A stretch of DNA of 64,000 nucleotides from Malacoraja senta (lineage: Eukaryota). The position numbers and the translations under genes were made by a program. The stretch is from contig CM075989.1 in assembly GCA_038087875.1 (NCBI GenBank), forward strand, positions 19,222,001 through 19,286,000. Reading direction: 5' to 3'. The stretch's first letter is position 1, and every line of letters begins with the position of its first letter. The notes under the pieces are model-generated. The model was not told the DNA's origin and ran no database searches. It saw nothing but the letters and a program-made list of their open reading frames with translations. This document shows positions 35,138 to 64,000 of this stretch, one piece after another.

Positions 35138-35248
35138 TGTGCCATCTTCCAGCTGCAGGAGTAGTACATCAGATCCCCTCTGATAGTCCTTGGCGATCTC
35201 TGCCGGGCACCAGACTTCATCAGGGTCAGGAATCCAAACACTATTGAA
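35138..35248 (-). CDS. MYO5C: Myosin Vc exon 2 ([37 protein letters not shown])
   Basis: 111 nt, cacag|...|gtaagt; SH3-like N-terminal segment of myosin V. Confidence 0.93.
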
Positions 35249-36534: not shown

Positions 36535-36897
36535 TAGATACATAGATACATAGAAAATAGGTGCAGGAGTAGGCCATTCGGCCCTTCGAGCCTGCACTGC
36601 CATTCAATATGATCATGGCTGATCATCCAACTCAGTATCCCGTACCTGCCTTCTCTCCATACCCCCTGATCCCTTTAGCCACAAGGGCCACATCTAACTC
36701 CCTCTTAAATATAGCCAATGAACTGGCCTCAACTACCCTCTGTGGCAGAGAGCTCCAGAGATTCACCACTCTCTGTGTGAAAAAGTTTTTCCTCATCTTG
36801 GTCTTAAAGGATTTCCCCCTTATCCTTAAGCTGTGACCCCTTGTCCTGGACTTCCCCAACATCGGGAACAATCTTCCTGCATCTAGCCTGTCCAACC
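36535..36897 (-). mobile_element. CR1-type LINE 3' fragment
   Basis: Reverse complement of the 21200-21563 subfamily. Confidence 0.88.
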
Positions 36898-36959
36898 CCA
36901 TGCCTGCATTTGGGCCATATCCCTCTAAACCTGTCCTATCCATGTGCCTGTCTAACTGT

Positions 36960-37455
36960 TAGAGAGTGTAGCGTAGGTTTACAAGGTTAATTCCTGGGAT
37001 GGCGGGACTGTCATATGCTGAGAGAATGGAGCAGCTGGGCTTGTACACTCTGGAGTTTAAAAGGATGAGAGGGGATCTCATTGAAACATATAAGATTGGT
37101 AAGGGCTTGGACACACTAGAGGCAGGAAACATGTTCCCGATGTTGGGGGAGTCCAGAACCATGGGCCACAGTTTAAGAATAAGGAGTAAGCCATTTAGAA
37201 TGGAGACAAGGAAACACTTTTTCTCACAGAGGGTGGTGAGTCTGTGGACTTCTCTGCCTCAGAGGGCGGTGCAGGCAGGTTCTCTGGATGCTTTCAAGAG
37301 AGAGCTAGATAGGGCTCTTAAAAATAGCAGAGTTAGGGGATATGGGGAGAAGGCAGGAACGGGGTACTGATTGGGGATGATCAGCCATGATCACATTGAA
37401 TGGCTGTGCTGGCTTGAAGGGCCAAATGGCCTACTCCTGCACCTATTGTCTATTG
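36960..37455 (+). mobile_element. CR1-type LINE 3' fragment, second subfamily
   Basis: MAGLSYAERMEQLGLYTLEF...; tail (tattgtc)n. Confidence 0.88.
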
Positions 37456-38988
37456 TTTCTTAAACGTTGGGATAGTCCCAGCCTCAACTACTTCCCTGGC
37501 AGCTCGTTCCATACCCCCACCACCCTTTGTGTGAAAAAGTTACCCCTCAGATTCCTATTATTATGTAATTATGAGAGATTATTAACTAATGATGACAACA
37601 TAGACTGAAGATGCTGGAATCTGGAGCAAAAACAACAAACTACTTGGTAGAACTCATTGGATCAAGCAGCATCTGTGGAGACAGAGTGAGGATCGAATAT
37701 CGGATCAAGTCTCTGCATCAGTTCTACAGATGGCACAGCGGTAGAGCTACTTACTGCCTTACAGCGCAGAGACTTGGGTTCAATTCTGACTACGGGTGCT
37801 TGTCTGCGCGGAGTTTGTACGTTCTCCCCGTGACCCGCGTGGGTTTCCTGTGAGATCTTCAATTTCCTCCCACACTCCAAAGACGTACGGGCGCATAGGT
37901 TAATTGGCTTGGTATAAAATGTACATTTGTCCCTAGTGTAGGGTGGTGTCAACGTGTGGGGATCGCTGGTCGGTGCGGACTCAGTGGGCCGACCGGCATG
38001 TTTCCGCGCTGTATCTCTAAACTAAACAAATCAGTTCTCTGCTTTTAGTGCAGTTAGCTTCTTTGGCCCAAAGTATTTTGCCTCTAACTAAACACAAGTT
38101 CACAAGTCATAGGAGTAGAATTAGGCCATTCGGCCCATCGAGTCTACTCCGCCATTCAATCATGGCTGATCTCTGCCTCCTAGTCCCATTCTCCTGCTCT
38201 TCTCCCCATACCCTCGACACCCGTACTAATCAAGAAACACAAGCCATGATATATTAGTACTGGGCAGTGGCGTGCATAGAAATGCCAATCATATGAGACA
38301 CAATGAACTGCAGGTGCGAGGTTTACATAAAATGACTCAAGGTGCTGGAGTAACTAAGGCTATAATTAAGGACATTTCCTTAAACAAATCTACAGCAGTT
38401 TAAAAGTCTGGATTATATGTGGCACCTGAAATGATGTAATGGTTTACATTGTGGGATGACCTGATATCTTCACGTTGTCAACATTCCAATAATCTTACTG
38501 CAAACGCCTTATGTAAATATGCGTGTGGATCTGTTTTTCTCTCTTACCCCAATTTGGTTAACTCCCTCCTCCTTCAATACAAATCAATTCGGAGTCTAAG
38601 AGTTTAAGATTTGCTACCATATTTTATGCAATCGCTTCCTCTTCTGACAATTCTAGTTTGAGAAGAAGGACTGGACGCCTAAATAAACACAGGAATTAAT
38701 ATTTAGAATCAGCCGACTCTCCATCTCTAATTTCCCTGGCAACGTTTAGTTAACTTTAGGGTTCCCTCGGGCAGCTCACAACGCAGTGGGGGAAAAGAAT
38801 TTCAAGCAAAGCAAGAATTTCATTGTCCTATCAGGGACACATGACAATAAACTCACTTGACTTGACCTGAACTGCAGATGCCAGTTTACACCGAAGAGTG
38901 ATACAAATTGTTGGAGTCACCCGAAACGTCACCCAATCCTTCTCCAGAGATGCTGCCTGGGACAGGCAGCATCTCTGGAGAAGGATTG

Positions 38989-39022
38989 GGTGACGTTTCG
39001 GGTCGAGACCCTTCTTCAGACC
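38989..39022 (-). ncRNA. Minimal type-I hammerhead ribozyme motif (intact core), MYO5C intron 1, sense strand
   Basis: ggt-CTGAAGA-A-GGGTC tc GACCC-GAAA-cg-TC-acc. Confidence 0.6.
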
Positions 39023-39516
39023 GATGTCAGGGGAGAGGGAGATATAGAGATAAGGTAGTGTAAGGTGTGAAAATAGGACAAAGGGAATGCAGATCAAGGA
39101 CAATGTCAAATAGATCATTGTTAGCTGGGAGAAGGTAACGACAGAGCAAACAGCGATAACATGTAGTCGGAGACAGTTGGAAAGCTGGGAAGGGGGAGTG
39201 ATGGTGAGAGAGGGAAAGCAAGGGTTACTTGGTTAAAGAAGTCAATGTCCGGAAGCTGCCCAAGTGAAATATGAGGTGCTGTTCCTCAGCGGTATGAATA
39301 TTGATTTCTCCAACTTCAAGTAACCCCGGCATTCCCTCTCTTTCCACCCCTCCCCCACCCAAGTCGCACCAGCTTCTCGTTTTCACCAAAAAAAAACAGC
39401 TAGCAATGGTCAGTTTCCTTTATCATCGTGATATTGTTTTGCATATCTTTCCTTCATTGTTCTACATCTCTCTACATCATCGTCTATATCTCTTGTTTCT
39501 CTTTCCCTTGACTATC

Positions 39517-39550
39517 AGTCTGAAGAAGGGTCTCGACCCGAAACGTCACC
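39517..39550 (+). ncRNA. Hammerhead motif (intact core, 2-bp stem I)
   Basis: agt-CTGAAGA-A-GGGTC tc GACCC-GAAA-cg-TC-acc. Confidence 0.5.
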
Positions 39551-39984
39551 CAGTCCTCCCCTCCAGAGATGCTGCCTGTCCCGCTGAATTACTCCAGCTT
39601 TTTGTGTCCACCTTCAGCCATGATCAAATTCTTTTCCCCCACTGTGCAGGCTCGAAGGGCCGAATGGCCTACTCCTGCACCTATTTTCTATGTTTCTATG
39701 TTTCAGTGTGTAACTTCAGCATATGCAGTTCCTTCCTACACTTAAAGGTTCCCCAACTCCCTCGAGAGCCCAGCTCCCCCTTATTTCCACTCTAAGGGTA
39801 CAATTCTACACTCCTCCACACCAGAAATCCCTTCTTCTCCCTGCTCCCATCCAGCAGAAGATACAGAAGTTAGCAAGCACGCACGATCAGACTCAGGGGC
39901 AGTTTCTTTCCCTCTGTTTGGCACGGACGTTACCCAATCATCACTGCTTATTACAGCTGATAGATACTAAATATTTAAATAGTG

Positions 39985-40275
39985 CAGCACGGTGGCGCAG
40001 TGGTAGAGTTGCTGCCACACAGCGCCAGGGACCCGGGTTCGATCCTGACCACGGGTGCTGTCTGTACGGAGTTTGTACTTTTTCCCTGTGACCGTGTGGG
40101 TTTTCTCCGGGTGCTCCGGCTTCCTCCCACACTCCAAAGACGTACAGGTTTGTAGGCCAATTGGCTTCTGTAAATTGTCCCTCGTGTGTAGGGTAGAACT
40201 AGGGCACGGGTGACCATTGGTCGCTGCGGAATAGGTGGGCCGAAGGGCAGGTTTCCACGCTGGAGCTCTAAACTA
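39985..40275 (+). mobile_element. V-SINE (HE1-like), full length
   Basis: A/B boxes, V-domain, tail. Confidence 0.85.
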
Positions 40276-40909
40276 AAGATAGACACGAAAAGCTGAAGTG
40301 ACTCAGTGGGTCAGACTGCATCTCTGGAGAAAAGGAATAGGTGGCGTTTCGGGTCGAGAAACTGAAGTCTGAAGAAGGGTCGCGACCCAAAAATGTCATC
40401 TATTCATTCTCTCCAGAGATGCTGCCTGTCCCGCTGAGTTACTCTAGCTTTTTGCATCTATCTTCGGTTTAAACCGGCGTCTGCAGTTCCTTCCGACACG
40501 TAAGATTTACAAGGATAGCCTGGTGTAATTCTAGTGTTGGTTCATTACCATGGTTACTAGACAAATAAAACGGAGGCCAAAGGAGAGGAGAGGTAGTGAG
40601 AAGCAGCAGCTGGCAGCTCGATCGATCGCCTGCCTTTACACTCTGTTCGTTGGAACTCAATCAGGTGACATTATTTACACGTCAGATACTAGAAAGATGC
40701 ATTCTTTTAACTCATTATTTCAGGTACACGGGAACTCAATAAAGTCAAGGCTGCATCAAATCATTCAAAATATCTGTCTTTTAAAGTTCAAGCTACAATC
40801 TAGTGGACAGCGAGTCTCACCCTGGCCACTCACTCTTCCCCCCCTCACCCAGCAGGCAGAAGAGTATAGAAGTGTGAAAACACACATCTCCAGATTCAGG
40901 GACTATTCC

Positions 40910-41280
40910 TTGACTTCTCTAACTTCAAGTAACCCTTGCTTTTCCTCTCTCTCCATCCCTCCCCCTTCCCAGTTCTCCGACCAGTCTGACTGTCTCCAAC
41001 TACATTTTATCTGTTTGTTTTGTTGTTACCTTCTCCCAGCTAACGATGATCTATTCAACATTTTCCTTGATCTCCATTCCCTTTGTCCTATTTCCACGCC
41101 TGACATTTCCTTATCTCCAGTAAGCATCTCCCCCTCCCCTGACATCAGTCTAAAGAAGGGTCTCAACCCAAAATGTCACCCATTTCTTCTCTCCAGAGAT
41201 GCTGCCTGTCCCGCTGAGTTACTCCAGCATTTTGTGTCTATCTTCGGTTTAAATCATCATCTGCAGTTCCTTTCCTACAC
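40910..41280 (+). mobile_element. Penelope-like 3' end, inserted in a Rex1-type fragment
   Basis: gacttctctaacttcaagtaa (DFSNFK*) followed by the same terminal repeat with a mutated hammerhead. Confidence 0.7.
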
Positions 41281-44200
41281 TGTTTCGTCCCAGCTGTTAT
41301 CAGGCAACTGAATCATCCTACCACAACCAGAGAGCAGTGCTGAACTACCTCTTTGGTGACCCTCAGACTATCCTTGATCGGACTTTGCTAGCTTTACCTT
41401 GCACTAAACATTATATTACCTTATCGTGAATCTACACACTGTACATAGTTTGATTGTAATTGTGTATTGACCTTCTGCTGACTGGATAGCACGCAATAAA
41501 AGCTTTTCACTGTACCTTTAATACACGTGGCATTAATAATAATAATTATGAATAATAATAAACTAAATATTAAAGCAACAGGTAGAATATTGAAGGAAGG
41601 AACTGCAGATGCTGGCTTAAACCAAGATGCTGGAGTAACTGAGTGGGACAGGCAGCATCTCTGGTTGGAAGGAATGGGTGACGTTTCGGGTCAAGACAAC
41701 AGAACTTTGAAATCTATTCAATCGCTCATATTAAAGTGTCTCTGCTTGAATCTGCTGACTCTTAAATACTTAAGCAAGTGTATTCCCAAGTGCAGTCTTC
41801 CAGTTGAGTTACGTGTTGGCCCAGAGAGCCTAGACTGTGCCAGGGGACACCCTCCGGAGTTCAATGGGGCAGTGGACACCTGTGTAGGTTGTTGGACCAG
41901 GTGCCAATACAGCAGGGACAGAGAAACCAATGTACTCCTGGGCCATTCTAATTACAAGCTGAAATGGGTACAGTGAAGATTAACGAGGATGTTGCCAGGA
42001 CTCGAGGGCCTGGGCTATAGGGAGAGGTTGACTCTATTCCAAGGAGCGCAGGAGGATGAGGGGTGATCTTAAAGAGGTGTACAAAATCATGGGAGGAATA
42101 GATTGGGTAAATGCACAGTCTTTTACCCAGAGTTGGGAAATCGAGGACCAGAGGACAGAGGTTCACGGTGAGGGGGGAAAGATTTAATAGGAACCCAAGG
42201 GCTAACTTTTCTTTTACCTAAAAGGTGGTGGGTGTATGAAATGAGTTGCCAGAGGAGGCAGTTGAGGCAGGTGGTATCGCCATGTTTAAGAAACAGTTGG
42301 ACAGGTACATGGATAGGACAGGCCGAGAGGGATATGGGCCACACGCAGGCAGGTGGGACTAGTGTAGATGGGGCAGGTTGGTCGATGTGGGCCGAATTAC
42401 CTGTTTCCACGCTGTACGACTCGTTGACTCAAGTCAGGAAATAAAACCGTATTGAACATAGCCTCAAAGTGCTGGAGTAACTCAGCAGGTCAGGCAGCAT
42501 CTCAGGAGGAAAAGGATGGGTGACGTGTCAGGTCAACGGGAAACAACACCTCACCTTTTTCTCCAGCGATGCTACCTGACCCACTGAGTTACTCCAGCAC
42601 TTTGAGGCTATCTTTGGTATAAACCAGCATCTGCAGTTCTGTCTCTATAACAATGTATTGAACTGTTTCAACTAAATGCATTTTTAGTGCTTTCACTTTT
42701 TTATAGGTTTAAGATGAGAGGGGAGAGATTTAATACGAACCTGAGGGGCAACTTTTTTAGTTTAGAGATACTGCGTGGAAACAGGCCCTTTGGCCCACCA
42801 AGTCCATGCTGACCATCGATCACCCGTACACTAGTTGTATGTTATCCCACGTTTCTACCTTGCACACTGGGGACAATTTGACAGAAGCCAACTAACCTGC
42901 AGCTCTGTGGGAGGATATCGGAGCACATGGAGAAAACCCACGCTGTCACAGGGAGAACGTACAAACTTCGCACAGACAGCACCCGTAGTCAGGATCGAAT
43001 CAGGGTCTCTAGTGCTGCAAGGCAGCTATTCTACCGCTGCACCACTGAGCTAGATAGGGCTCTTAAAGATAGCAGAGTCAGGGGATATGGGGAGTAGGCA
43101 GGAACGGGATACTGATCACAGCCATGATCACATTGAACAGCCGTGCTGGCTCGAAGGGCCGAATGGCCTACTCCTGCACCTATTGTCTATTGTCTGCCTA
43201 ACAGAGTGATGTCACACAGAGAGTGCAATGAGCTACTGGAGAAGGGAGTTGAGAAAGATCCAATAAAAAAACATTTCAACAGGTGGATAGGAAAGGTTTA
43301 GAAAGATAATGGGCCAAATAGGAGAAATTGGAACTAACTTAGATGGGGCATCTTGGCCTGCATGGAGTTGGGCCGAAGGGCCTGTTACCGTGCAGTATGT
43401 CTCTATGCCCACTGACGTCATAGTTCACCCTCCTTATCCTAAGAGGGTGCATGTACTGAATCACTCTCTCCCATTCTCAGGGTGATAGGACCAAGCGGGG
43501 AGAAAACGCACACATCTGGTGCTCCTGAGAATGGTGACGTTTTCAACACAGAAAATCTAAAAAAGGAGTTAAAAACTATAAATAAAAAGTTTCGATCATT
43601 TTCAACATGAAGCTGTAGTTCAGATGTCGACAGTGAAGTCCAGGAAAGGAAGGTATTCGAGAACCAGAGCAAGATGTTCTTCTACCATTTAATTTCTCCA
43701 AAAAAATAAATCCTGGCACCTCTTGCGTGGGATTTGGAGCCGGGCCCTGGACGATGAAGCTCAGCGATTACGAAGTCGTATCTGACAGCGTTCCGGGCAT
43801 TTATATGCGCTTGGAATGACCTTTAGGTCACTCCTTCAGAAGCAAGAATCCAATGATTCTCTACAGCCGATTTCCAGGCCACTTAAAGGACCCTCCAGAC
43901 CAGCTATTAGTTTAGTTTAGTTGACAGATACAGCATGGAAACAGGCCCTTCAACCCACTGTGTCCATGCCGACCACGATCACCCCATTCACTAATTCTAT
44001 CCTACGCATTAAGGGCAATTTACAGATGGCCAATTAACCTACAAACTGGAGGAAACTCATGCGGTCACAGGGAGAACGTGCAAACTCCGTACAGACCGCA
44101 CCCATATTCAGGATCGAACCAGGGTCTCTGGTGCTGTAAGGCAGCAACTCAACCGCTGCGCCACCGTGCTGCCCTAAGGTGTTATCAGCACCTTAACGTA

Positions 44201-45090
44201 TTTACTCATGAGTACACTGTATATTCACCGTATCCCCCACACCATCGCCAACTCCCACACCAAAAGCACCCAATACTTACCCACCACCCACCCACTGATC
44301 ACCTCAGTGGTCCCCCCACCAAACAGCTGCACCTCAGTCTCCCCGTCCCCAACTCCAGACCCCAGTCCCTTGACTAAACCACAGCCTAGGACTCTCCTGC
44401 CATCCTTCGCTCTGCACCGTTGCAAGTGCACAAAGGTCTATTGCCAAGCGGCAGACACACAAACGGGAGCACTGTTGTACAACCACTGGTCTCCACCAGC
44501 CTGCTCAGTCAGTAATTACACAAGCAGTTTGCATGCCATCCAGTCAAATCAAATTAAGCCGCACAAAGGGACAACAGGTAGTGCAACGAGAAGAATTCCA
44601 GAGTGCAGAATATACCATTACATCATGGAAGCAAAACATTTACAGAGAAAAGGTCCAAGGTCCACAATGAGGTAGGGTGGAAGATCGGGACAACTCCCTA
44701 GCTTATGGGAGGGCCGTTCGGTAGTCTGATAACACTGGGGAAGAAGCTGTACTTGAATCTTTCTTGTTGGATCTTCATCCTAATACAGATCTAGATCCAC
44801 GTACAGACCCACAACTAATTTTCCGGCACAACTTGGTTTCAGACGGTTGCTGGATTATCCATTTTGCCAGACCAACAGACATCACGTAATAATGAAAAAA
44901 CCACACACTCCCGAGTCACTAATTGTACCCCTTCCCGTGTCTGCTAGAAACTTAAAGAAAACAAATATTAAATGTACATTAAACGTGCTTACGCTTGACA
45001 CCACAACTGTCACCAGAATCAAAGCTTAAAAGCCATAGCTAGAGTTACATGTAAGCAAAATGGGCGACACAGTAGCGCAGCGGCAGAGTT

Positions 45091-45486
45091 AAAAAAAATT
45101 TTTTATTAGAAGCAATTGTACAAGGAGAAAGTAATCGACATAACAATTATACAATTTTCGTACAGCGTCAATTTTAACATTTTTATAAACTAATAACTTA
45201 ATCGGAAAAAAAGAAAAAGGAAAAAAGGGAAAGAAAGAAGAAAAGAAAAAGAAAAGAAAGAATTTCGAGAAAGACACGAAAAAGAAAAAAGAAAACCCCC
45301 AGAACTAACGAAGACGTGAAAGAAGTGGAGATATATCCCACTGCCCTTCCATACCCCCGCTCACCCGACCCTAGCGTCGGTTTTGAGTTTGTGTTCAACC
45401 ATTATGTTGTTGAAGAAATTCAATAAAAGGAGACCAATTTTTGGAAAATTGATCTGGTTTGTCAGTCAAGACGAGCCTTATTTTTT
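45091..45486 (-). mobile_element. L1-clade LINE 3' end inserted in the head of a V-SINE
   Basis: Minus strand KIRLVLTDKPDQFSKNWSPFIEFLQQHNG*, T-rich 3'UTR, AATAAA plus A-tail; diverged 21-bp duplication at the flanks. Confidence 0.65.
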
Positions 45487-47519
45487 CAGCGGTGCAGCGG
45501 TAGAGTTGTTGCCTGACAGAGCTTGCAGCGCCGGTTCGATCCCAACTACGGTGCTGTCTGTACGGAGTTTGTACTTTCTCCCTGTGACCTGCGTGGGTTT
45601 TCTCCGAGGTCTTCGGTTTCCGGTGCAGGTTTGTAGGTTAATTTGCTTGGTTATAAATGTGAATTGTCCCTAGTGTGTGTAGGATAGTGTTAGTGTGCGG
45701 GGATCGCTGGTCGGTGCCGACTCGGCGGGCCTGTTTCCAGGCTCTATCTCCAAACTAAACTAAACTACAAACAAAATAAGCTAAGACTTTCACAAACCAC
45801 TATCACCAACAACTGTAGATGTAAACAAATAACTCTTTCGAGACGGGGAGACACGGCCTGAAAGAGCAGCGCCACGCACAGCGCCACCTGTGGCTGCCCA
45901 TGGGGTTTCAAGTGCGCTCTCGTCATTTTGTCCGGAGTAAGGGAGGTGCCGGACCACCAGTTGTCGGACAATCAGTGGTGGACCTGTAATGACTTCCCTC
46001 TCAGACAACGCCAACCATCTTTCTTGCCTGACAGCTTTAATGATGTGGAGAAACATCATCAGGATATTTGCTTCTCAATCGCTTAATTCAGGGACATTGA
46101 GGTGAAGCAAAAGGGTTTTTTTAGGGCCAGATAACTGGGACGTAAAAATCTTTTGCAGCAGAATATGCAGAGTCCTACAGTATGCAGAAAGGCCCTTCGG
46201 CCCAACTTGCTCACGCCAACCAACATGCCCCATCTGCACTAGTCCCCCTTGCCTGCATTTGGCCCATGTCCCTCTCAACCTGTCCTATCCATGTACCTGT
46301 CCAAATGCTTCTTAAACATTGCGATAGTCCCTGCCTCAACTATCCCCTCCGGCAGCCTCGTTCCATGCAGCCACCATTCTTTGTGTAAAATAGTTACCTC
46401 TCAGGTTCCCATTAAATCTTCCCTCCTTCACCTTAAACCCATGTCCCCTGGTTCATGATTCCCTTTCTCTAGGCAGAAGACTCCGTGCGTTTACCCGATC
46501 TAATCCTCGCATGACTTTGCGCACCTCTATAAGATCAACCCTCATCCTGCTGTGTCACATAAGGTCCTAGCCTGCTCAACCTATCCCAATAGCTCAATCC
46601 CTTGAATCCTGGCAACATCCTCGTAAATCTTCTCAGCCTTCCTTCTGGCTCGATAACATCTTTCCAATAACATGGTGACCAAAACTGAACACAATACACT
46701 CGCTAACGTCTTATATAACTGCAACATGACCTCCCAACAACTACTCAATACTCAACGCAGAGAAAGTTACATTGGGGAAAATTAAAATAACCACCCACTC
46801 AAATGTGTGACAGTGTGAATCACAGACATTTTCATCGTTGGGTGTGGTGCTCCCTGAGAATGAGGAAAGCAGGAATATTCTACAAATTTGTCTCGTGGCA
46901 TCACACACAGAGAATGGTGGAGCCATTCAACTAACCCATTGGGCATCGACCAAGTTCATTATGTAAAATAAAGGCACAAAATGTTGGAGTAACTCAGCAG
47001 GTCAGGCAGCAGACCGAAGAGACCCGACCCGAAACGTCACCTATCCGTGTTCTTCAGATATGCTGCCTGACTTGCTGAGTTACTCCAGCACTTTGTGCCA
47101 TTGCTATGCTGAATGACACTGACTCTAAAAGGTGCACCACTCTCTGTAGTTAACACGTATAGAAAGGAACTGCAGATGCTGGTTTAAACCGAAGACAGAC
47201 ACAAAAAGCTGGAGTAACTCAGCGAGACCGACAAGGAATGGGTTACGTTTTGGCTCTTCAGTCTGCTGCCTGGCCTACTGAGTTACTCCAGCGCTTTGTG
47301 CCTTTATTCTACATAATGAACTTGGTCGGAAACATCACCTATTGTTTCTCTCCAGAGTTGCTGCCTGTCCCCCTGAGTTACTCCAGCTTTTTGTGTCTAT
47401 CTTCTGCAGTTAACATTACTGGGATTCATTTTTCATTCCAGAGTTTTGCAATGGCTTGGATTTAAATTATATCTCGTGGGGTTCAAGCTTTTGTCCTGAG
47501 ATCAAGGGGGGCCCCAGAC

Positions 47520-47690
47520 CTCTCAGAGGTTCCATACTTTATGTATGTATGCTATATGTATGTAATTATGTATGTACTTAATCTATGAACCACTGTTGTA
47601 TAACGTTAGTACCTCCACCAATGTAAAGCACTTTGGTCAACGAGAGTTGTTTTTTTAAATGTGCTATAGAAATAAAAGTGACTTGACTTG
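47520..47690 (+). mobile_element. L2-like LINE 3' tail
   Basis: tgtaaagcactttgg...aaatgtgctatagaaataaa followed by (gactt)n. Confidence 0.5.
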
Positions 47691-48474
47691 ATACTTTAAC
47701 TGCTAACATAGTTACTGAGCAAGTTGGTGGAGATGCATGGCTGTACAACAGTGCTCCAGTTTGTGTGTCTTCAGCTTGGAGATAGAGTCGTGCGAGAGGC
47801 CTTTGTGCACTGCAGAGCGAAGGATGGCAGGAGAGTCCTAGGCTGTGGTTTAGTCCAGGGTCCAGGTGATGGAGGTAGGACGGAGAATTGGTACAGTTGT
47901 TTGGTGGTGGGGAGGGGGGGGGGGAAGTTTGCAGTAACCACTGGGGTGATCAGTGGGTGGGTGCTGGGTGCTTGGGTGAGCACTGCATGCTTTTGGTGTG
48001 GGAGATGGCGATGGAGTGACAATAGACAATAGACAAAAGGTGCAGGAGTAGGCCATTCGGCCCTTCGAGCCAGCACCGCCATTCAATGTGATCATCGCTG
48101 ATCATCCCCAATCAGTACCCCATTCCTGCCTTCTCCCCATATCCCCTGACTCCGCTATTTTTAAGAGCTCTCTCTTGAAAGCATCCAGAGAACCTGCCTC
48201 CACCGCCCTCTGGGGCAGAGAATTCCACAGACTCACCACTCTCTGTGAGAAAAAGTGTTTCCTCGTCTCCGTTCTAAATGGCTTACTCCTTATTCTTAAA
48301 ATGGTGGGGTGGGGGGGGAGATACAGTGACTATAAACAACAGCTAACTTAGTTACTAAACAAACTGGTGGACAATGGTAGTCAGAAAGCAATGGACACTA
48401 ACCAAATAAATGAGATATGACCGATAGCTTCCTAACAAAAGGGATGGTTTTAAAAGGAGGAAAGAAGAATAAAG

Positions 48475-48768
48475 GGCGGCACAGTGGTGCAGCGGTAGAG
48501 TTGCTGCCTCACAGCCAGAGAGACCAGGGTTCGATCCTGACTATAGGTGCTCTCTGTACGGAGTTCGTACGTTCTCCCCGTGACCTGCGTGGGTTTTCTC
48601 CGGGATCCCCGGTTTCTTCCCACTCCAAAGACGTACAGGTTTTAGGTTAATTGGCTTCGGTAAAATTGTAAATTGTCCCTAGTTCGTGGATGGTGCTAGT
48701 GTGTGGGGACCGCTGGTCAGCAGGGACTCGGTGGGCCGAAGGGCCTGTTTCCGCGCTGTATCTCTAAA
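48475..48768 (+). mobile_element. V-SINE (HE1-like), full length
   Basis: A/B boxes, V-domain, tail. Confidence 0.85.
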
Positions 48769-48979
48769 GAATGAAGAGCCTGCAGAGTTTGGGGCAGAAA
48801 GAATGAGATCTAGAGACTGCGGATAGAAAAGGGGGAGAGTTCAGAACGATGAAAAGTTGGAGTTCCGTGTACAATCATTTAATTTTGGACTGAAAGCTTA
48901 ATCCCAGTCAGGCTTACTGATTATTTGAACTGGGTTTGAATTGTTTGAAGACCTGATGAGTTATAGAGCTGTGGAGCAC

Positions 48980-49013
48980 GGTCTGAAGAAGGGTTCCGAC
49001 TCGAAACGTCACC
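48980..49013 (+). ncRNA. Hammerhead motif (intact core)
   Basis: ggt-CTGAAGA-A-GGGTT cc GACTC-GAAA-cg-TC-acc; stem II retained through G-U pairs. Confidence 0.55.
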
Positions 49014-51459
49014 CATCCTTGTTCTCCAGAGTTGCTGCCCGACTTGCTGAATTACCCCAACACTGTGCGTATATCTTCAGCACGGAAACAGGCCCTTTGA
49101 CCCACGTTGTCCGTGCCGACCTCTTTGGTACACTCGTTCTAACCCCATTTGCCTGCATTTGGCCCATAGCCATCTAAACCCTTCCTTTCAAAAGCTGTAA
49201 TCGTATCTCTAATGCAATCCGCTTCTGCAGCCTCCTCTGGCAGTTCTTTCCAGATATGGACTACTCTACAATTGAAAAGGTTACCAAGTCAAGTTTATCA
49301 AGTCAAGTCAAGTTTATTCATCACATACACATACGAGATGTGCAGTGAAATGAAAAGTGGCAATGCTCGCGAATTGTGCAAAAAAAACAAACCCAAACAA
49401 ACTACAAACAGAATGGAACAGAATCACACATTCTTTTTCATATTAAATATTGTGGGAGGAAGGAAAAAGGAAAAAAAACAGCAATTTCCCAGTTCCCTCT
49501 TTACTCTCTTCCCTTTCACTTTAAGCCTACGCCCTCGCATTTTAGAACCCTCTACTCCCGGGGGAAAAAGACTGTGAATGTGAGCGTTCACTTTATCCAT
49601 TCCATGCCCCTCATGATCTTGCACACCTCAATCAGACCACCCCCTCAGCCTTCAGTGAAATAAGTCCCAGTCTATTCAACCTTTCCCTGACACTATAAGT
49701 CCAAGTAACATCCTGGTGAATGTCTTCTGCACCCTCTCCAACTTAATGGCTTCCTTCCTATATCTGGATGACCAGAACTCCACATAGTACTCCAAGTGTG
49801 GCCTCACCAACGACTTGTACATCACAATGTCCTGTATGTCCACGCGAGGTTACTGGGATGAGACCTCTGTGTGTGGGGATCCCTGGTCGGCATGGACTCA
49901 GTGGGCCGAAGGGCCTTTTTCTGCGCTGTATCTCTAAACTAAACTAAGTGACTGCCATAAATGTTTGGGAAAGTGGCCCCGTGCAGTCTGTGAATAGTGT
50001 CGCCTAGGTGTGGTTTGTAGATGAGTCATAGAAAAGTGGCAAGTGTAAAAGACTTGAGATCACCGCAGATGAAAAGGTGCAGTGATTGAGTGAGTCACCA
50101 TTGCTAAACAGGCCGGGCTACAATGGGATGACAAGGTGAAACCATTCCACTTAGAAGATCGACAAGGAAAGGAACCTCAGTCGGCATGTCACTCATGTCA
50201 TAGCAAGTTCTTCACAGCAAGGACTAGGTAGCACAGTGGTAGAGTTGCTGCCTTACAGCGCCAGAGACCTGGGTTCGATCCCGACCACAGGTGCTGTCTG
50301 TATGGAGTTTGTACATTCTCCTCGTGACCTGCGTGGGTTTTCTCAGGGACCTCCCTCCGGTTTTCTCCCACACTCCAAAGACGTCCAGGTTTGTAGGTTT
50401 ATTGGCCTGGTATACCCGTAAAATTGTCTCTAGTGTGTATAGGATAGTGTTAGTGTACGGGGATGGCTGGTCTGCGTAGACTCGGTGGACCGAAGGGCCC
50501 GTTTCCACGCTATATTTCTAACCCAAACTAAACAAAGGAGGGTGCTCATCATGAACTTGAATAGGTACTCGTGATTGGGATGAGAAAATGTGTTTAAACA
50601 GTCTGAAGAAGGGTGAATATATATTAGCATCTGTGGAAGGAACATTTCGGGTCAGGACCCTTCTTCAGACTAAAGATTCTGAAAAGGGATCCTGACCTGA
50701 AACATCATCTCTTCATGTTCTCCAGAGATGCTGCCTGAACCACTGAGTTATCCCAGCATTTTTTGGCTTAAAACCCCCCCACAGCATCTGCAGTTCCTAG
50801 TGTCTATATGGGAGATAACATATCATAAAAATAAAATTAATTAATAAACCTAATGTTTGTGCAAAAAAACATCCAAAGTCCTTGGTGCCATTTTCACTGC
50901 CAAGTACCCTCCCTCCTTCACCTGTGCTAATCTATCACTTGCCAGGTGGACACAAAATGCTGGAGAAACTCAGCAGGTGAGGAAGCACCCATGGAGAGAA
51001 GGAATTCTGAGACCTATGGCCTCTGGTCCTAGACTCTCCCACTAGTGGAAACATCCTCTCCACGTCCACTCTATCCGGGCCTTTCACTATTCGGTGTATC
51101 AATGTGTTCCCCCCTCACCCTTCTAAAGTCCAGTGAGCAAAGGCCCAGTGCCATCAAACGCTCATCATACATTAACCCAATCATTCTTGGGATCATTCTC
51201 GTCAATCTCCTTTAGACCATCTCCAGCACCAGCACATCCTTCCTCAATATGGGGCCCAAAATTGCACACAATACTCCAAATGCAGTCTGACCAGCACCTT
51301 ATAAAGCCTCAGCATTACATTCTAGTTATTTGGTTTAATTTAGAGATACAGCGCGGAAACAGGCCCTTCGGCCCACCGAGTCCGCACTGACCGACGATCC
51401 CCGCACACTAACACCATCCTACACATATTAGGGACAATTTACAATTATACCAAGCCAAT

Positions 51460-51807
51460 TCTACCTGCACACCTGTATACTTGCGCACCTGTATACCTGC
51501 ACACCTGCATACCTACACACCTGCATACCTGCACACCTGCACACCTGCATACCTACACACCTGCATAGCTACACACCTGCATACCTACACACCTGCATAG
51601 CTACACACCTGCATAGCTACACACCTGCATAGCTACACACCTGCATAGCTGCACACCTGCATAGCTGCACACCTGCATAGCTACACACCTGCATAGCTAC
51701 ACACCTGCATAGCTACACACCTGCATAGCTACACACCTGTATAGCTACACACCTGTATACCTACACACCTGTATACCTACACACCTGTATACCTACACAC
51801 CTGTATG
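51460..51807. repeat. 16-bp minisatellite (ctgcatagctacacac)n, copy 1
   Basis: Perfect and variant 16-mer tandem array with no spacers. Confidence 0.95.
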
Positions 51808-52027
51808 CTACCATCCTCTGTGTGAAAAACTCTGGTTCCTAGTAAATCTTTCCCCTCTCACCTTAAATCTGTGTTCTATGGACCACTATTTCCCCTATAA
51901 TCTGCTACACCTTCATATGATCACCCCCTCAACCTCCTGCGCTTCCAGCAATCGGTGAGTGGAAATAGACCGATGGTATACCTACACACCTGTATGTCTT
52001 TGGAGTGTGGGATTTCTACCTGCCAAT

Positions 52028-52351
52028 TCTACCTGCACACCTGTATACTTGCACACCTGCATACCTACACACCTGCATACCTACACACCTGCATAGCTAC
52101 ACACCTGCATAGCTACACACCTGCATAGCTACACACCTGCATAGCTACACACCTGCATAGCTACACACCTGCATAGCTACACACCTGCATAGCTACACAC
52201 CTGCATAGCTACACACCTGCATAGCTACACACCTGCATAGCTACACACCTGCATAGCTACACACCTGTATACCTACACACCTGTATACCTACACACCTGT
52301 ATACCTACACACCTGTATACCTACACACCTGTATACCTACACACCTGTATG
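52028..52351. repeat. 16-bp minisatellite, copy 2
   Basis: Same unit, different variant order and count. Confidence 0.95.
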
Positions 52352-52773
52352 CTACCATCCTCTGTGTGAAAAACTCTGGTTCCTAGTAAATCTTTCCCCT
52401 CTCACCTTAAATCTGTGTTCTATGGACCACTATTTCCCCTATAATCTGCTACACCTTCATATGATCACCCCCTCAACCTCCTGCGCTTCCAGCAATCGGT
52501 GAGTGGAAATAGACCGATGGTATACCTACACACCTGTATGTCTTTGGAGTGTGGGAGAAAACCAGGGATCCCGGGGAAAACCCACGCAGGTCACGGGGAG
52601 AACGTACAAAACTCCATACAGACGGCACCCGTGGTCAGGATCGAACCAACTTTACAGCCGCGCCCACCTCTCGAAAAATAAATGCTAGCATCCCATTCAC
52701 CTTCCTTACTACCGAGTCGATTCGTATCAAATCTGTATTCGTATCGTATCGGATCTGGGGATCCTGGTTCATC

Positions 52774-52807
52774 AGTCTGAAGAAGGGTTTCGGCCCGAAA
52801 CGTTACC
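52774..52807 (+). ncRNA. Hammerhead motif (intact core, 2-bp stem I)
   Basis: agt-CTGAAGA-A-GGGTT tc GGCCC-GAAA-cg-TT-acc. Confidence 0.5.
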
Positions 52808-52869
52808 TATTTCCTTCGCTCCATAGATGCTGCTGCACCCGCTGAGTTTCTCCAGCATTTTTGTGTACC

Positions 52870-53540
52870 TATGAAAGTAAGCATGCAGGTACAGCAGGCA
52901 GTGAAGAAAGCGAATGGCATGTTGGCCTTTATAACAAGAGGAATCAAATATAGGAGCAAAGAGGTCCTTCTGCAGTTGTACAGAGCCCTAGTGAGACCAC
53001 ACCTGGAGTATTGTGTGCAGCTTTGGTCCCCTAATTTGAGGAAGGACATTCTTGCTATTGAGGGAGTGCAGAGTAGGTTTACAAGGTTAATTCCCAGGAT
53101 GGTGGGACTGGCATATGCTGAGAGAATGGAGCAGCTGGGCTTGTACACCCTGGAGTTTAGAAGGATGAGAGGGAATCTCATTGAAACATATAAGATTGTT
53201 AAGGGCTATGACACACTAGAGGCAGGAAACATGTTCCAGATGTTGGGGGAGTCCAGAACCAGGGGCCACAGTTTGAGAATAAGTAGTAAGCCATTTAGAA
53301 CGGAGACCAGGAAACACTTTTTTTTTCCACAGAGTGGCGAGTCTGTGGAATTCTCTGCCCCAGAGGACGGTGGAGGCAGGTTCTCTGGATGCTTTCAAGA
53401 GAGAGGCTCTTAAAAATAGCGGAGTCAGGGGAAATGGGGAGAAGGCAGGAACGGGGTACTGATTGGGGATGATCAGCCATGATCACATTGAATGGCGGTG
53501 CTGGCTCCAAATGGCCTACTCCTACACCTGTTGTCTATTG
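52870..53540 (+). mobile_element. CR1-type LINE 3' fragment, second subfamily
   Basis: QQAVKKANGMLAFI...LVRPHLEYC...; frameshift near the end. Confidence 0.88.
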
Positions 53541-54163
53541 ATTCACAAATTAACTTTTTGGGGATCCTGCACCGGCGCTCCCAAGTCCCTTTTACACCCT
53601 CCCTCCCGTCAAACGAGGGCTCAATGTATTGTTGAACTGTCCATTCAGAGGGAAACAGCCGCTCGCTCTCACTGCTGCAGCATCCTGTTCCAGCAGCCAG
53701 CTAACGTCATGCCTCTGACTCTCTGCCAATGCACCCGAACACGCGTGAAAAGCCACCACTCTCCCCGACAGACAGTCACACCGACCACAGGGAAAGCCAT
53801 GGATTAAAAAGTTGCTTTAACAACACCGAACCTTCAAACATAAAGACAACTTCACAGCCGCGTTGCATATGTCAGGTGAAATCGAGCACCTGACCCACTT
53901 CCCAGCAACAAGTTCAACTCACTTGGAAACTACATGGGGCAGTGTGGTTGGAAACGTTCCTTGCATTGCCACTTTAATGCAGGATTCAACTGTAAAGGTT
54001 TCTGTTCAATTGCTGTTTTATTGTCACCTACACCTGCTTGCAGTGAAATGCTTTGCGTTCCACACAAGCCAGTCAAATCATAAACACAATCATGCATAGG
54101 GGAATCAAAAACTTGTTTAGCTTTGGTGCGGGAGCGCAGAGGAAGTGCAGAGAATGGAGTTAC

Positions 54164-54190
54164 CTTGGTGTACAGTTCAGCCACTGCCAT
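54164..54190 (-). CDS. MYO5C: Myosin Vc exon 1 (MAVAELYTK)
   Basis: Kozak gtgaccATGG, 27 nt, donor AAG|gtaact; matches the MYO5C N-terminus MAVAELYT. Confidence 0.9.
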
Positions 54191-58522: not shown

Positions 58523-58660
58523 TTAAATGCCACCTGAAATGACAATTCATTAGTATTGCAGCCAAGTAGTATTTTTCTGCAATGCTTGCATTCATAAATA
58601 AATTTACAAATTCGACAGATTTAAACCATAAAAAAGAAGCCAGTTCATAGTGTTGAAATT

Positions 58661-58666
58661 TTTATT
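58661..58666 (-). terminator. Candidate distal polyadenylation signal AATAAA of MYO5A
   Basis: tttatt on +; U-rich sequence (ggcttcttttttatggttt) downstream on -. Confidence 0.55.
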
Positions 58667-59480
58667 TTACAAGTTGGACATTAATTTCCTAAGTCAATAT
58701 ACATTTGCCATAATGCACACAATGACTAATTGCTACAAACGGGAAAGACTAGTGTTTCTGAATTTTTCTGTACATCAATATCATACTCAGTGTTTACTAC
58801 CTGGTTAAACACAATAGGTTTTCAGGTCAATGTCCCTCAACAACATACTATAGCAACACACGTTTTCTTCCATGACCACTGCCGATAATTTAAATATCTC
58901 TAGCTTCTTAACACTAACCGCGAGTAATGTACGTACGTTTTATGATACAAAGAAGTAAAAAGCCATATAAAGCAGAAAACTTGAGACGATATAATATGTG
59001 GGGCAAAACTATAAAGTGCATAAATGATATTTCAAAGGAATATGACCTTCATATTTTGTTCAGCAATTTAGTTACTCATCGTATTCTAAATCAATTCTAA
59101 AGTTTCACTTTCTAAACCCAGAATTTGTCAAAATGGCTTAAAATGAAAGTACTGGTTTTGGGAGGAGACAGTGTTGAGGAGCGGCAACCAGTAACTTGGA
59201 CTTTACCAATTTCCCAGACAATGTTTTTTTTTAAACTTAAATCCGTTCTGTCTACGCAGTTTCTGCTCTCTTGACAAAAAGCCACTTTTTTTTTTTTTTA
59301 AAGATTGCCCAAAGCTTATTATGCTTTTGAAATATGTTATTTTCGGTGAATTGAGCAAACATCTGTAAGGCTCTGGGAACTTTGTCCGTTAAGACGTAAA
59401 GACTGAAATGTGTATAACTGCAAAATCCACTACATGTCATGAGCAAATCAAATATTCAGTATAGTTTCAGTCAATGTTTC

Positions 59481-59578
59481 AATCTGAAGAAGGGTCTCGA
59501 CCCGAAATGTCACCCATTCTTTCTCTCCAGAGACGCTGCCTGTCCCGCTGAGTTACTTCAGCGTTTGGTGTCTATCTT
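59481..59578 (+). mobile_element. Penelope terminal-repeat fragment with hammerhead core inside the MYO5A 3'UTR (antisense to the mRNA)
   Basis: aatCTGAAGAagggtctcgacccGAAAtgTCacccattc...gctgagttacttcagc. Confidence 0.7.
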
Positions 59579-60779
59579 TAATATATAGTCTGATTTGTTT
59601 TCAATAATCTTTGTGGATGAAATAAAGGACTCTGTAGATGTATACAGGGTATTATATTAACTTCTACCCTGTGAGACTTTGAAATACCATACACCTTTCA
59701 GTTATATATTACCAGGACTATAAATAGGCACATATAATACACCATAGAGACTTGTAAACCATTGTCCTGAAACCAGATTTCTGAAATTGGCTGGTTGGTT
59801 CATGAATTAAATAACTTAAAATATGTAAACAATGAAGGGTAGAACAAGTGTATACATTTTGGCCACCATGAAGTGACATTTTAAATCAAATTTATAATTC
59901 AGAGTACCTATTGTCCTTTAAAGTAAGACCTCCCAGAATTGATTCTATAGAACAACATCCGAAGCCATTGGGACAGTGGAATGAAAGCTGTCTAGTGAGA
60001 TTGATGCCTGCATCTTAACTACTGCAACCTGCATGTAACTTGACTCGAACGTCACTAAATACTGAAAAATGCTGAAAATACTGGAGAAAAAAAAAATACT
60101 TCTACTCAGCTTGTTTACAATTGTCATCTTTAACCCTAATATACACAGTAACAAACAAATTAAAGAGCAAGTCCTGTATTGTGAAGTCTCCACAGATTCC
60201 AACAGGAGAGTATTTAAAAGGCCAAACGATATTGTGCCAAATACTGCAAAAAAAAAAAAAGTTTTTTTTCAACTGGCTATATTTTTAATCTGTTGCCAAA
60301 TATCCATCTGAGAATTTGATTACTTTTCAGCGCTTTTGTGCTTTGCCAGAATTGGACCTTAAAATGTTAACTACATGTGAATCAGTTTAAAACGGGCTTG
60401 ATAAATGCATAATGGAGACGTGTTATATTTTTAGTGACATCTTGACGTTACACTGTCTGCTGTCAAATGTGTGCAGCTCAACATATTAAAGGGACACTGG
60501 ACAGATTACCATCATAATTGGCTATGTAAACACCAACAATGTAATCTCTAGATTATATTCTAACAGAGCTTTGTATTCTACATCATTTGTATATAGACCT
60601 TACATAAGAGTTATTCGACAAAATGATGCTATATCAGGCAGTTGTATTCCCCTTAGGTAGATATCTAACGGGTATGGTGTGACCTAATTTACAGTTGTAA
60701 ATTTGAAGTATATTCACTGAAACTGCACAAGAGCAGTCATCACTGGATATTTACTGGAGTTGCATGAAAGTGTTTGGCA

Positions 60780-60785
60780 TTTATT
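60780..60785 (-). terminator. Candidate proximal polyadenylation signal AATAAA of MYO5A
   Basis: tttatt on +, about 95 nt after the stop codon. Confidence 0.35.
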
Positions 60786-60878
60786 TTCAATGTACATTCC
60801 TTGTTAACAGATGCTTCGCCACTGCTCTAGCTGTGTGTAACGGATGGATGTGATCGCTAGTTTTCCAGAACCTTCTCC

Positions 60879-61031
60879 TCACACACGTAACAGGAAACCA
60901 AGGTTCATGCTGCCTGGAATCTGAATGCTTTCAAGCGCTAAAGAAGATGGATTGAACGGGAACGTGACGGGGAATATGTGTTTCGCATCCATTAGCAACT
61001 GCGGAGAGTCTTTTCGATTTTGTAAACGCAC
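60879..61031 (-). CDS. MYO5A: Myosin Va last coding exon ([50 protein letters not shown])
   Basis: Polypyrimidine ctctctccag acceptor, 50 codons plus TGA; near-identical to the MYO5A C-terminus [29 protein letters not shown]; missed by the ORF track. Confidence 0.93.
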
Positions 61032-61544
61032 CTGGAGAGAGAGAGGGGATAAAAAAAAATTAATGGATTAGTATTGTCGGAGTCTTAACGCAATCGGAGT
61101 TTACAAATACTCCCCATAGGTTTCAGATCTCTGTACGTTTAAAAAAAAAAAAAAAAAAAAAATTCAGACATTGAAAGGAAGGTAAATAGAGTTGCTGTCT
61201 TACAGAGCCAGAGACCCGGGTTTGATCCTGACTATGGGTGCTGTCTTGTACGGAGCTTGTACAGTGTCCCTGTGACCGCGTGGGTTTTCTCCGGGTGCTC
61301 CGGTTTCCTCCCACATTCCAAAGACGTTCAGGTTTATAGGTTAATTGGCTTCTGTAAATTGCCCTTAGTGTGTAGGGTGGAATAGTAGGCATTGACTTGG
61401 CATTGACTCGGTGAGGGGGGGGGGTGTTTCCAAGCTGTACCTCTAAAAACTAAACTAATCTATAAATTCTGATGATTGTGAAAAACATACCAAAATACAT
61501 ACTTTTTAATTTCTAGTCAGAAGGGAACATGCAATATTACAAGG

Positions 61545-61646
61545 CTAACAGCATCATCAAGGACCCACACCATCCTGGCCACTCACTCATCTCCCGGCTG
61601 CCTTCAGGTAGAAGGTACAGGAGCCTGAAATCTGCAACATCCAGGT
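61545..61646 (+). mobile_element. Rex1/Babar-type fragment truncated by the gap
   Basis: SIIKDPHHPGHSLISRLPSGRRYRSLKSATSR|NNN. Confidence 0.8.
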
Positions 61647-61846
61647 NNNNNNNNNNNNNNNNNNNNNNNNNNNNNNNNNNNNNNNNNNNNNNNNNNNNNN
61701 NNNNNNNNNNNNNNNNNNNNNNNNNNNNNNNNNNNNNNNNNNNNNNNNNNNNNNNNNNNNNNNNNNNNNNNNNNNNNNNNNNNNNNNNNNNNNNNNNNNN
61801 NNNNNNNNNNNNNNNNNNNNNNNNNNNNNNNNNNNNNNNNNNNNNN
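61647..61846. other. Assembly gap (200 N)
   Basis: Run of exactly 200 N, a typical fixed-length scaffolding gap. Confidence 0.99.
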
Positions 61847-62022
61847 CACTGGAAAAGAAGACACAAGGCACTGGAATAACTCAGCGGGTCAGACACCAGC
61901 CCTGGAGAACATGGATAGGTGAGGTTTTGGGTCAGGACTGATTGTGGTGAGGGGGGGGGGGGGATTTGGGGGATAAGAAAGCTGGGAGTGAGGTGGGAGC
62001 AGGACAAAGTCGGGAGAGTGAT

Positions 62023-62173
62023 AAAAAATGCTGGAGAAGCTCAGCGGGTGAGGCAGCATCTATGGAGAGAAGGAATAGGCGACGTTTCGGGTCGAGAGTC
62101 TCGACCCGAAACGCCGCCTATTCCTTCTCTCCATAGATGCTGCCTCACCCGCTGAGTTTCTCTAGCATTTTTT
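62023..62173. repeat. Near-perfect 75-bp-arm palindrome of Penelope terminal repeat
   Basis: Arms 62023-62097 and 62099-62173, centred on hammerhead stem II (gggtcgaga-g-tctcgaccc). Confidence 0.85.
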
Positions 62174-62547
62174 GTCTACCTTCGATTTTACCAGCATCTG
62201 CAGTTCTTTCTTAAACTGAAGAGTGATAGGTGGATACAGGCGGGGGGAGTTTGATAGGCAGATGGTTGGACAAAAGCCAGAGATGAAAAGACACAAAGTG
62301 TGAGTAAGGATAGGAGGGGTGGAAATTGTGAAGCCAGAGGAAGGAATTAAGCTGGAAGCAGAAAAAAAATTGCTGGAGGAACTTGGTGGGTCAGACAGCA
62401 TCTGCGCTGTGTCTCAAACTAAACTAAACCAAAGCCTCCTATCCTTCCTGTGATGGTGCGACAAGAACTCCACAAACACTCCAAATAGGCTTGTTGGATT
62501 TTTGTACCACCGTTCTGAAATTAATACGTACTCCCTTCAAACCGCAG

Positions 62548-62702
62548 AACTGAAGCCTCGTGGCGTTGCTGTCAACTTGATCCCTGGACTGCCGGCTTAC
62601 ATCTTGTTTATGTGCGTACGCCACGCTGACTACATCAACGACGACCAAAGAGTGCGGTCGTTGCTGACGTCAACCATCAATGGCATCAAGAAGATCCTCA
62701 AG
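62548..62702 (+). CDS. MYO5A: Myosin Va internal globular-tail exon ((E)[51 protein letters not shown]), inverted relative to the last exon
   Basis: 155 nt, cgcag|...|gtatga; matches MYO5A ([23 protein letters not shown]) better than Vb or Vc. Confidence 0.88.
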
Positions 62703-62714
62703 GTATGACGGCTC

Positions 62715-63280
62715 TATAGACAACAGGTGCAGGAGGAGGCCATTCGGCCCTGCGAGCCAGCACCGCCATTCAATGTGATCATGGCTGATCATCCCCAATC
62801 AGTACCCCGTTCCTGCCTTCTCCCCTGACTCTGCTATCTTTAAGAGCCCTATCTAGCTCTCTATTGAAAGCATCCAGAGAACCGTCCTCCACCGCCCTCT
62901 GAGGCAGAGAATTCCACAGACTCGCCACTCTCTGTGAGAAAAAGTGTTTCCTCGTCTCCGTTCTAAATGGCTTACTCCTTATTCTTAAACTGTGGCCCCT
63001 GGTTCTGGACTCCCCCAACATCGGGAACATGTTTCCTGCCTCTAGTGTGTCCAAGCCCTTAACAATCTTATATGTTTCAATGAGATTGCCTCTCATCCTT
63101 CTAAACTCCAGAGTGTACAAGCCCAGCCGCTCCATTCTCTCAGCATATGACAGTCCCGCCATCCCGGGAATTAACCTTGTAAATCTACGCTGCACTCCCT
63201 CAATAGCAAGAATGTCCTTCCTCAAATTAGGGGACCAAAACTGCACACAATACTCCAGGTGTGGTCTCCCTAGGGCCCCT
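62715..63280 (-). mobile_element. CR1-type LINE 3' fragment
   Basis: QFWSPNLRKDILAIEGVQRRFTRLIPG... Confidence 0.88.
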
Positions 63281-63397
63281 TACAAGAACATTTACACATT
63301 GACCTAAATTGGGTCAATGATCTACTTAACCTATTCGTAAACCTTTCGGAATCAGAGAGGGTGACTTCTTGCCAGGGTGGGATTGATTTTTTTTTAA

Positions 63398-63900
63398 GGG
63401 CGGCTCAATGGCGCAGCGAAAGAGTTGCTGCCCCACAGTACCAGAGATCCGGGTTCGATCTTGACGATGGGTGTTAGTCTGCACGGAGTTTGTACGTTCT
63501 CCCCGTGACCGTGTGGGTTTTCCCCGGGTGCTCCGGTTTCTACCCACATTCCGACGACATGCAGCTTTGTAGGTGAATTGGCTTGTGTAAATTGTCCCCA
63601 GTGTGTAGGATAGGACCAGTATATGGGGACCGCTGGTGGGCGTGGATTCGCTGGGCCAAAGGGCCTGTTTCCACGCTGTATCTCTAAAACTAAAAACGAA
63701 AACTCTGAGAGATACAACATGGAAGAAGCCCTTCGGCCCATCGATTCCACGCCAGCCATCAATCACCTGTTCACACTAGTTCTATGCTGTTCCACTTTCT
63801 CATCCACTCCCTACACACAAGGGGAGATTTTCAGAGGCCAATTAACCTACAAACCTGCATATCTTTTGATGTGGGGTGGGGGGGGGGGGGGAACTGGAGC
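63398..63900. mobile_element. Two V-SINEs tail-to-tail (+ then -)
   Basis: Plus copy 63398-63690; minus copy from about 63705. Confidence 0.75.
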
Positions 63901-64000
63901 ACCCTCTAAGCTGGAAAGGGTGCAGAGTGGATTCATGAGGATGTTGTCAGGACTCAAGGGCCTGAGCTATAGGGAGAGGTTGAGTGGGTTAGAACTTTAT

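What the first reader, a model, noticed from the sequence alone, without database searches (positions are those of the whole stretch)
61647..62702. MYO5A exon on the opposite strand beyond a 200-N gap: probable mis-oriented contig
Seen: the MYO5A terminal exon is on - (60879-61031), so its upstream exons should follow on - to the right. Instead, the first exon after the gap is an intact MYO5A globular-tail exon on + with good splice sites, and it normally lies several exons upstream of the last exon. Inference: the contig right of the gap is flipped; a real inversion or a paralogous fragment is less likely. Automated annotation would truncate or split MYO5A here.
Basis: partly seen in the sequence, partly recalled or inferred. 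Interest (0 to 1): 0.7.

Follow-up and report, generated by a model that had tools for sequence, protein, structure and literature searches.

The report
Assembly flip splits skate MYO5A gene
An intact internal exon of the myosin Va gene sits on the opposite strand from the gene's last exon, across a 200-N placeholder gap, most likely because a short piece of this skate genome assembly was placed backwards; it matters as a curation fix and is likely not new biology.

Summary
Observation confirmed. The window's only gap is exactly 200 N (61647-61846). Left of it, on minus, lie the MYO5A last exon (residues 1830-1879 of a skate model) and, 6.7 kb downstream, MYO5C with 24 exons in order: the conserved tandem pair. 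Right of it, on plus, lies an exon with AG/GT sites for residues 1518-1569, 51/51 identical to skate MYO5A and 32/51 to MYO5C. Residues 1570-1829, with the DIL domain, are absent from the window. The exon looks live: a probable RNA contig from a relative fits only this exon and runs on at both ends, and all 4 differences in relatives are synonymous. All 32 chondrichthyan MYO5A models examined run 361 residues from this exon to the C-terminus. The repeat cut at the left edge does not resume on the right, and no listed contig bridges the gap. Best reading (0.85): a short contig carrying the tail exons was scaffolded backwards. Orientation is inferred, not shown: the contig's far end lies outside the window and no long reads were available. 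Rivals: retained haplotype duplicate (0.07), real inversion (0.05), extra gene copy (0.03). An ordinary assembly artefact.

The parts
910..54190 (-). MYO5C, first 24 coding exons (residues 1 to about 1015), in order; gene continues left of the window
   Evidence: ATG exon at 54190-54164 matches the start of the Leucoraja MYO5C model; 23 further exons collinear on minus; one exon 94% to skate MYO5C, best PDB match myosin Vc
58650..60878 (-). Probable MYO5A 3' UTR; left end approximate
   Evidence: 58561-61031 is only 4% self-repeat against 56% for the window; AATAAA on minus at 58661-58666; the end is inferred
60879..61031 (-). MYO5A terminal coding exon, residues 1830-1879 plus stop
   Evidence: 50/50 identical to two skate MYO5A models, 26/50 to skate MYO5C
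61032..61646 (-). 3' part of the last MYO5A intron, ending inside a retroelement fragment (61541-61646, on plus) that is cut by the gap
   Evidence: 91% to the copy at 14545-14650; that copy goes on past the homologous point
61647..61846 (.). Scaffold gap of exactly 200 N; likely a placeholder of unknown true size
   Evidence: 200-N placeholders are reported for another assembly (PMC12134992, passage)
61847..62547 (+). 3' part of the intron upstream of the plus-strand exon; repeat-rich, with a 157-nt palindrome at 62020-62176
   Evidence: orthologous DNA contigs in organism C (records 29 and 32)
62548..62702 (+). Internal MYO5A globular-tail exon, residues 1518-1569, starting in phase 1 and ending in phase 0
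   Evidence: 51/51 to three skate MYO5A models, 32/51 to MYO5C; splice sites; probable RNA contig fits 62547-62702 only (record 24)
62703..64000 (+). Following intron, mostly interspersed repeats; next exon not reached inside the window

Best explanation
An intact internal MYO5A exon lies on the plus strand right after a 200-N gap, opposite to the gene's last exon, most likely because a short contig holding the tail exons was scaffolded in the wrong orientation. Shown: exon identities, strands, splice sites, the gap, MYO5C in tandem on minus. Inferred: the contig starts 700 bases upstream of the exon for residue 1518, so it cannot hold the earlier exons; the last exon is on the left contig, so it should end inside the last intron. 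It is therefore likely bounded at both ends within MYO5A, perhaps about 10 kb long if introns are like those of MYO5C here, a size that Hi-C orients poorly. Reversing it would restore a normal gene.
For: Strand switch coincides with the only gap, exactly 200 N. Left side has MYO5C directly downstream of MYO5A on the same strand, as reported for vertebrates (PMC6372264, passages). Exon is MYO5A: 51/51 against 32/51 for MYO5C. 32 of 32 chondrichthyan MYO5A models examined (15 species) have 361 residues from this exon to the end. A 1099-nt probable RNA contig of organism B fits only 62547-62702 with 469 and 474 letters beyond, while a DNA-like contig of organism C runs through both splice sites (records 24 and 32). 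4 of 4 exon differences in relatives are synonymous, where 112 of 459 possible changes are. The cut repeat does not resume right of the gap and the flanks do not overlap. Contigs of organisms A and C both run exactly 130 letters left of 61847 (records 3 and 29), which suggests shared sequence there and no break at this edge. Short contigs are the ones Hi-C misorients (PMC7672694, passages).
Against: No call shows orientation directly. The contig's far end, the predicted second gap and the exons for 1570-1829 lie outside the window, and no whole genome is held. Only short Logan contigs were available; 15 joints were listed and 333 not shown, 32 pieces listed and 118,869 not shown, so the lack of a bridge is weak. 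The RNA contig comes from another organism and its RNA status is a guess. That Hi-C was used is an assumption from the gap size.
Confidence: 0.85

Rival explanations
1. False duplication: the right-hand contig is the other haplotype's copy of the MYO5A 3' region, retained and scaffolded in inverted orientation. It would run on plus through the tail exons and a second last exon. Also an assembly artefact.
For: The window cannot show where the right contig ends. Run X1 differs from the window at 62529 while X2 agrees, so allelic variation exists here.
Against: The left contig would still lack its upstream exons at the gap, so a second error is needed. No overlap between the flanks inside the window. 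Contig depths on the right (29 and 37 in X1) are not lower than the two other long X1 records listed (19 and 21), but the tool warns that depth is no copy number.
Confidence: 0.07
2. Real intragenic inversion of the tail exons, most plausibly heterozygous in the sequenced animal, with the assembler breaking at both breakpoints. It would remove the cargo-binding tail from one allele.
For: A heterozygous inversion would also put gaps at the strand switches (general knowledge, no call). The left edge lies in a retroelement copy that seems absent from organism C: its contig leaves the window sequence at 61541 and goes on for 354 other letters (record 25).
Against: Sequence left of 61847 extends the same 130 letters in organisms A and C. 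No listed joint or piece links the two flanks (lists cut). Loss of the last 269 residues in a homozygous dog came with dilution and severe neurological signs (PMC8535926, abstract and passages), so a fixed inversion is very unlikely; carriers were healthy, so a heterozygous one is not excluded.
Confidence: 0.05
3. The plus-strand exon belongs to a real extra copy or paralogous fragment beside a complete minus-strand MYO5A further right.
For: The rest of the gene cannot be seen in the window.
Against: Exon identical in protein to orthologues, intact splice sites, only synonymous differences, and an orthologous intron at about 94% over 343 bases with organism C. No second MYO5A-like gene name appears among the chondrichthyan rows of the 120 hits listed of 1350.
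Confidence: 0.03

Closest known systems
Vertebrate MYO5A-MYO5C tandem locus (PMC6372264, passages)
   Same: MYO5C lies directly downstream of the MYO5A last exon on the same strand; both genes' exons match skate orthologues.
   Different: In this assembly one internal MYO5A tail exon lies on the opposite strand beyond a gap, and residues 1570-1829 are not where they should be.
Local contig orientation errors in Hi-C scaffolds (PMC7672694, passages)
   Same: A probably short contig at a fixed-size gap, reversed against its neighbour and disrupting a gene model; the paper reports 4.3% local errors for 3D-DNA in a human test set, worse for short contigs.
   Different: The scaffolding method here is unknown and the second bounding gap was not seen; the paper's rates come from short-read contigs and another tool.
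MYO5A loss-of-function alleles (Griscelli syndrome type 1, dilute mouse, Dachshund frameshift; PMC8535926)
   Same: If the arrangement were real it would remove the globular tail, as the dog allele does.
   Different: No evidence that the arrangement exists in the animal.

Membership tests
MYO5A orthologue exon | Closer to myosin Va than to Vb or Vc | tested here: met
   PDB: Va 93-95 bits, Vc 69, Vb 65; 51/51 to skate Va, 32/51 to skate Vc
MYO5A orthologue exon | Intact frame and canonical splice sites, used in a spliced transcript | tested here: met
   AG/GT and open frame; probable RNA contig of a relative stops at both exon ends. Not shown in this organism's own RNA.
MYO5A orthologue exon | Synteny with MYO5C downstream | tested here: met
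   MYO5C on minus from 54190
Mis-oriented contig | Strand switch falls at an assembly gap | tested here: met
   200-N gap lies between the two exons; the only gap in the window
Mis-oriented contig | Flanks are not contiguous in the assembled orientation | tested here: inconclusive
   No overlap, cut repeat not resumed; no listed bridge, but lists cut and contigs short
Mis-oriented contig | Second gap at the far end, and reversal restores exon order and the cut repeat | not testable with these tools
   Outside the window; no genome held; no notes on neighbouring windows
Mis-oriented contig | Long reads or Hi-C contacts favour the reversed orientation | not testable with these tools
   All 24 listed runs are kept as Logan contigs
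Real inversion allele | Reads join the two flanks in the assembled orientation | tested here: inconclusive
   None among 15 listed joints and 32 listed pieces; 333 and 118,869 not shown
Rex1/Babar retrotransposon (the cut repeat) | Reverse transcriptase of the Rex1 clade | not tested
   Only the 3' end is present; fragment gave no Pfam match, a longer copy gave PF09004. The link of that domain to Rex1 is recalled; one paper search for it found nothing.

The most novel reading that the evidence does not exclude
The sequenced skate carries a real, heterozygous inversion of the MYO5A tail exons, with one breakpoint in a lineage-specific retroelement: a natural Griscelli-type null allele in a cartilaginous fish that the assembly happened to capture.
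Probability: 0.04. Interest if true: 0.45.

Novelty: not a real feature. Interest (0 to 1): 0.12.

Why it matters
If the best reading holds, it is a curation fix: a gene model built on this assembly would likely lose or misplace the cargo-binding tail of myosin Va, and could be misread as gene loss or rearrangement in skates. Exon order gives a cheap way to orient such a contig. It opens no biological question unless long reads show a real inversion.

Tried and rejected
Whole-genome look for the remaining exons: no genome held. Earlier notes near this place, in this genome and in relatives: nothing. Run search: no RNA holder listed on record; not used as evidence. No contig of X1, X2 or X3 covered 61450-61535; a hole proves nothing. 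No reads were laid over both exons together, so an RNA joint between them is untested. Strand skew as an orientation marker: T-A skew right of the gap -0.016 against -0.041 +/- 0.044 in MYO5C bins, uninformative. Exon versus intron divergence to organism C: 4 of 155 against 16 of 188, p 0.021, but this counts 4 unlisted differences as intronic; only 12 intronic ones are listed, so it is treated as weak. Loose ends at 61646 are a consensus of 28 to 46 contigs from many repeat copies and say nothing on this copy. Idea that the exon belongs to MYO5C or MYO5B: rejected. Idea of a hidden minus-strand exon at the same place: rejected, stops in all three frames. Pfam found nothing on the 52-residue exon alone.

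Full report
Observation. The window has one gap, exactly 200 N at 61647-61846. On minus, 61031-60879 is a coding exon ending in TGA, preceded by a pyrimidine tract and AG; it matches the last 50 residues of myosin Va in the PDB. On plus, 62548-62702 is a 155-nt exon with AG and GT sites; it matches myosin Va residues 1468-1518 of 1828. All three minus-strand frames over it contain stops.

Identity. The exon search returned 1350 proteins, 120 listed; the full-length top hits are ray, skate and shark MYO5A at 100%. In skate numbering (P0025, 1879 aa) the plus exon encodes 1518-1569 and the terminal exon 1830-1879. The plus exon is 51/51 to three skate MYO5A models and 32/51 to two MYO5C models; the terminal exon is 50/50, 50/50 and 49/50 to the three skate MYO5A models. 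The organism is therefore probably a skate (inference). The 260 residues between the exons include the DIL domain at 1711-1813 and are absent from the window. I took the 32 named chondrichthyan models among the listed hits (P0005-P0037, leaving out the unnamed 142-aa P0027; 15 species, many isoforms): 32 of 32 have 361 residues from this exon to the C-terminus. That search can only find models that hold this exon, so it does not count broken models. That about six exons cover the missing part is recalled from the human gene and was not tested.

Left side. A second class V myosin runs on minus from an ATG exon at 54190 through 23 further exons in order down to 910. It is MYO5C: 94% to the Leucoraja model, best PDB match Vc. 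MYO5C directly downstream of MYO5A is the reported vertebrate arrangement (PMC6372264; 12 of 19 passages seen). So the left contig is laid out normally, and the anomaly begins at the gap.

The gap edges. The left contig ends inside a retroelement fragment, 91% like the copy at 14545-14650. A uniform 200-N gap is used as a placeholder in at least one other assembly (PMC12134992; one passage), so its true size is likely unknown.

Public runs. 24 runs were listed, all as Logan contigs; two of organism A hold 0.94 and 0.65 of the words, and the best may be the source of the assembly, so it is no independent support. I laid 4 of 24 on 61450-62730. A 1099-nt contig of X3 (organism B, RNA by guess) fits only 62547-62702, with 469 letters before and 474 after, whereas a contig of X9 (organism C) runs through both splice sites: the pattern of a spliced internal exon. 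The flanking letters were not printed, so I did not see that they are the neighbouring exons. The four exon differences in B and C are all synonymous; 112 of 459 possible changes are, giving about 0.004 for four of four, or 0.015 for the three shared ones. The changes are not polarised, so this shows constraint on the orthologue and not on this individual's allele. Record 3 (X1) and record 29 (X9) both run exactly 130 letters left of 61847, which suggests that both species share the sequence inside the gap and that this edge is no breakpoint private to organism A; the letters were not printed. No listed joint or piece bridges the gap, but 333 joints and 118,869 pieces were not shown and the contigs are short. 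Record 25 (X9) leaves the window sequence at 61541, where the retroelement starts, which suggests the insertion is absent in organism C.

Mechanism. Shown: exon identities, strands, splice sites, gap, tandem MYO5C. Inferred: the right contig starts 700 bases upstream of the exon for residue 1518, so it cannot carry the earlier exons, and the last exon is already on the left contig. Unless it is a duplicate, it must end inside the last intron, so it is a short contig bounded twice within one gene. With the MYO5C spacing seen here (34 kb for 23 exons) that would be roughly 10 kb, a guess. Short contigs are those that Hi-C scaffolding orients worst (PMC7672694; 12 of 21 passages seen). Reversing it gives the native order. 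Confidence 0.85.

Rivals. A retained haplotype duplicate in inverted orientation (0.07) needs a second error to explain why the left contig has no upstream exons, but cannot be excluded from inside the window. A real inversion (0.05) would cut off the cargo-binding tail; a homozygous loss of the last 269 residues in a dog came with coat dilution and severe neurological signs while carriers were healthy (PMC8535926; abstract and 9 of 9 passages), so only a heterozygous form is plausible. An extra gene copy (0.03) fits poorly with full identity and intact orthologous intron.

Limits. No genome is held, no neighbouring notes exist, and no long reads, Hi-C or RNA of this organism were seen. No read set was laid over both exons together. 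The claim about automated annotation was not tested. An earlier unreviewed note describes a similar flip between two gaps in a shark genome; it is an analogy and no support. I did not search the literature for this particular assembly error and make no claim that it is unreported. No supplements were read; none is likely to bear on the claim.

Verdict. A real strand conflict in the assembled sequence, most likely an assembly orientation error in a well-known gene. Interest 0.12.

Noticed in passing
window 62020-62176: Near-perfect palindrome: two 78-nt arms of a common short repeat, 95% complementary, 1 nt apart, 170 bases from the contig start.
   Followed up: no
window 61541-61646: The retroelement fragment at the gap edge seems absent at the orthologous place in organism C, whose contig goes on with 354 other letters from 61541 (record 25); possibly a lineage-specific insertion that contributed to the contig break.
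   Followed up: partly
window 910-54190: MYO5C 5' part is complete and collinear on minus, 24 exons for residues 1 to about 1015, with a first intron of about 19 kb.
   Followed up: yes
window 62529: Run X1 of organism A reads C where the window and run X2 have T, near the acceptor tract of the plus exon: an allele or a consensus error.
   Followed up: no
window 58561-61031: The probable MYO5A 3' UTR of about 2.2 kb is almost free of interspersed repeats (4% against 56% for the window), with several candidate poly(A) signals on minus.
   Followed up: no
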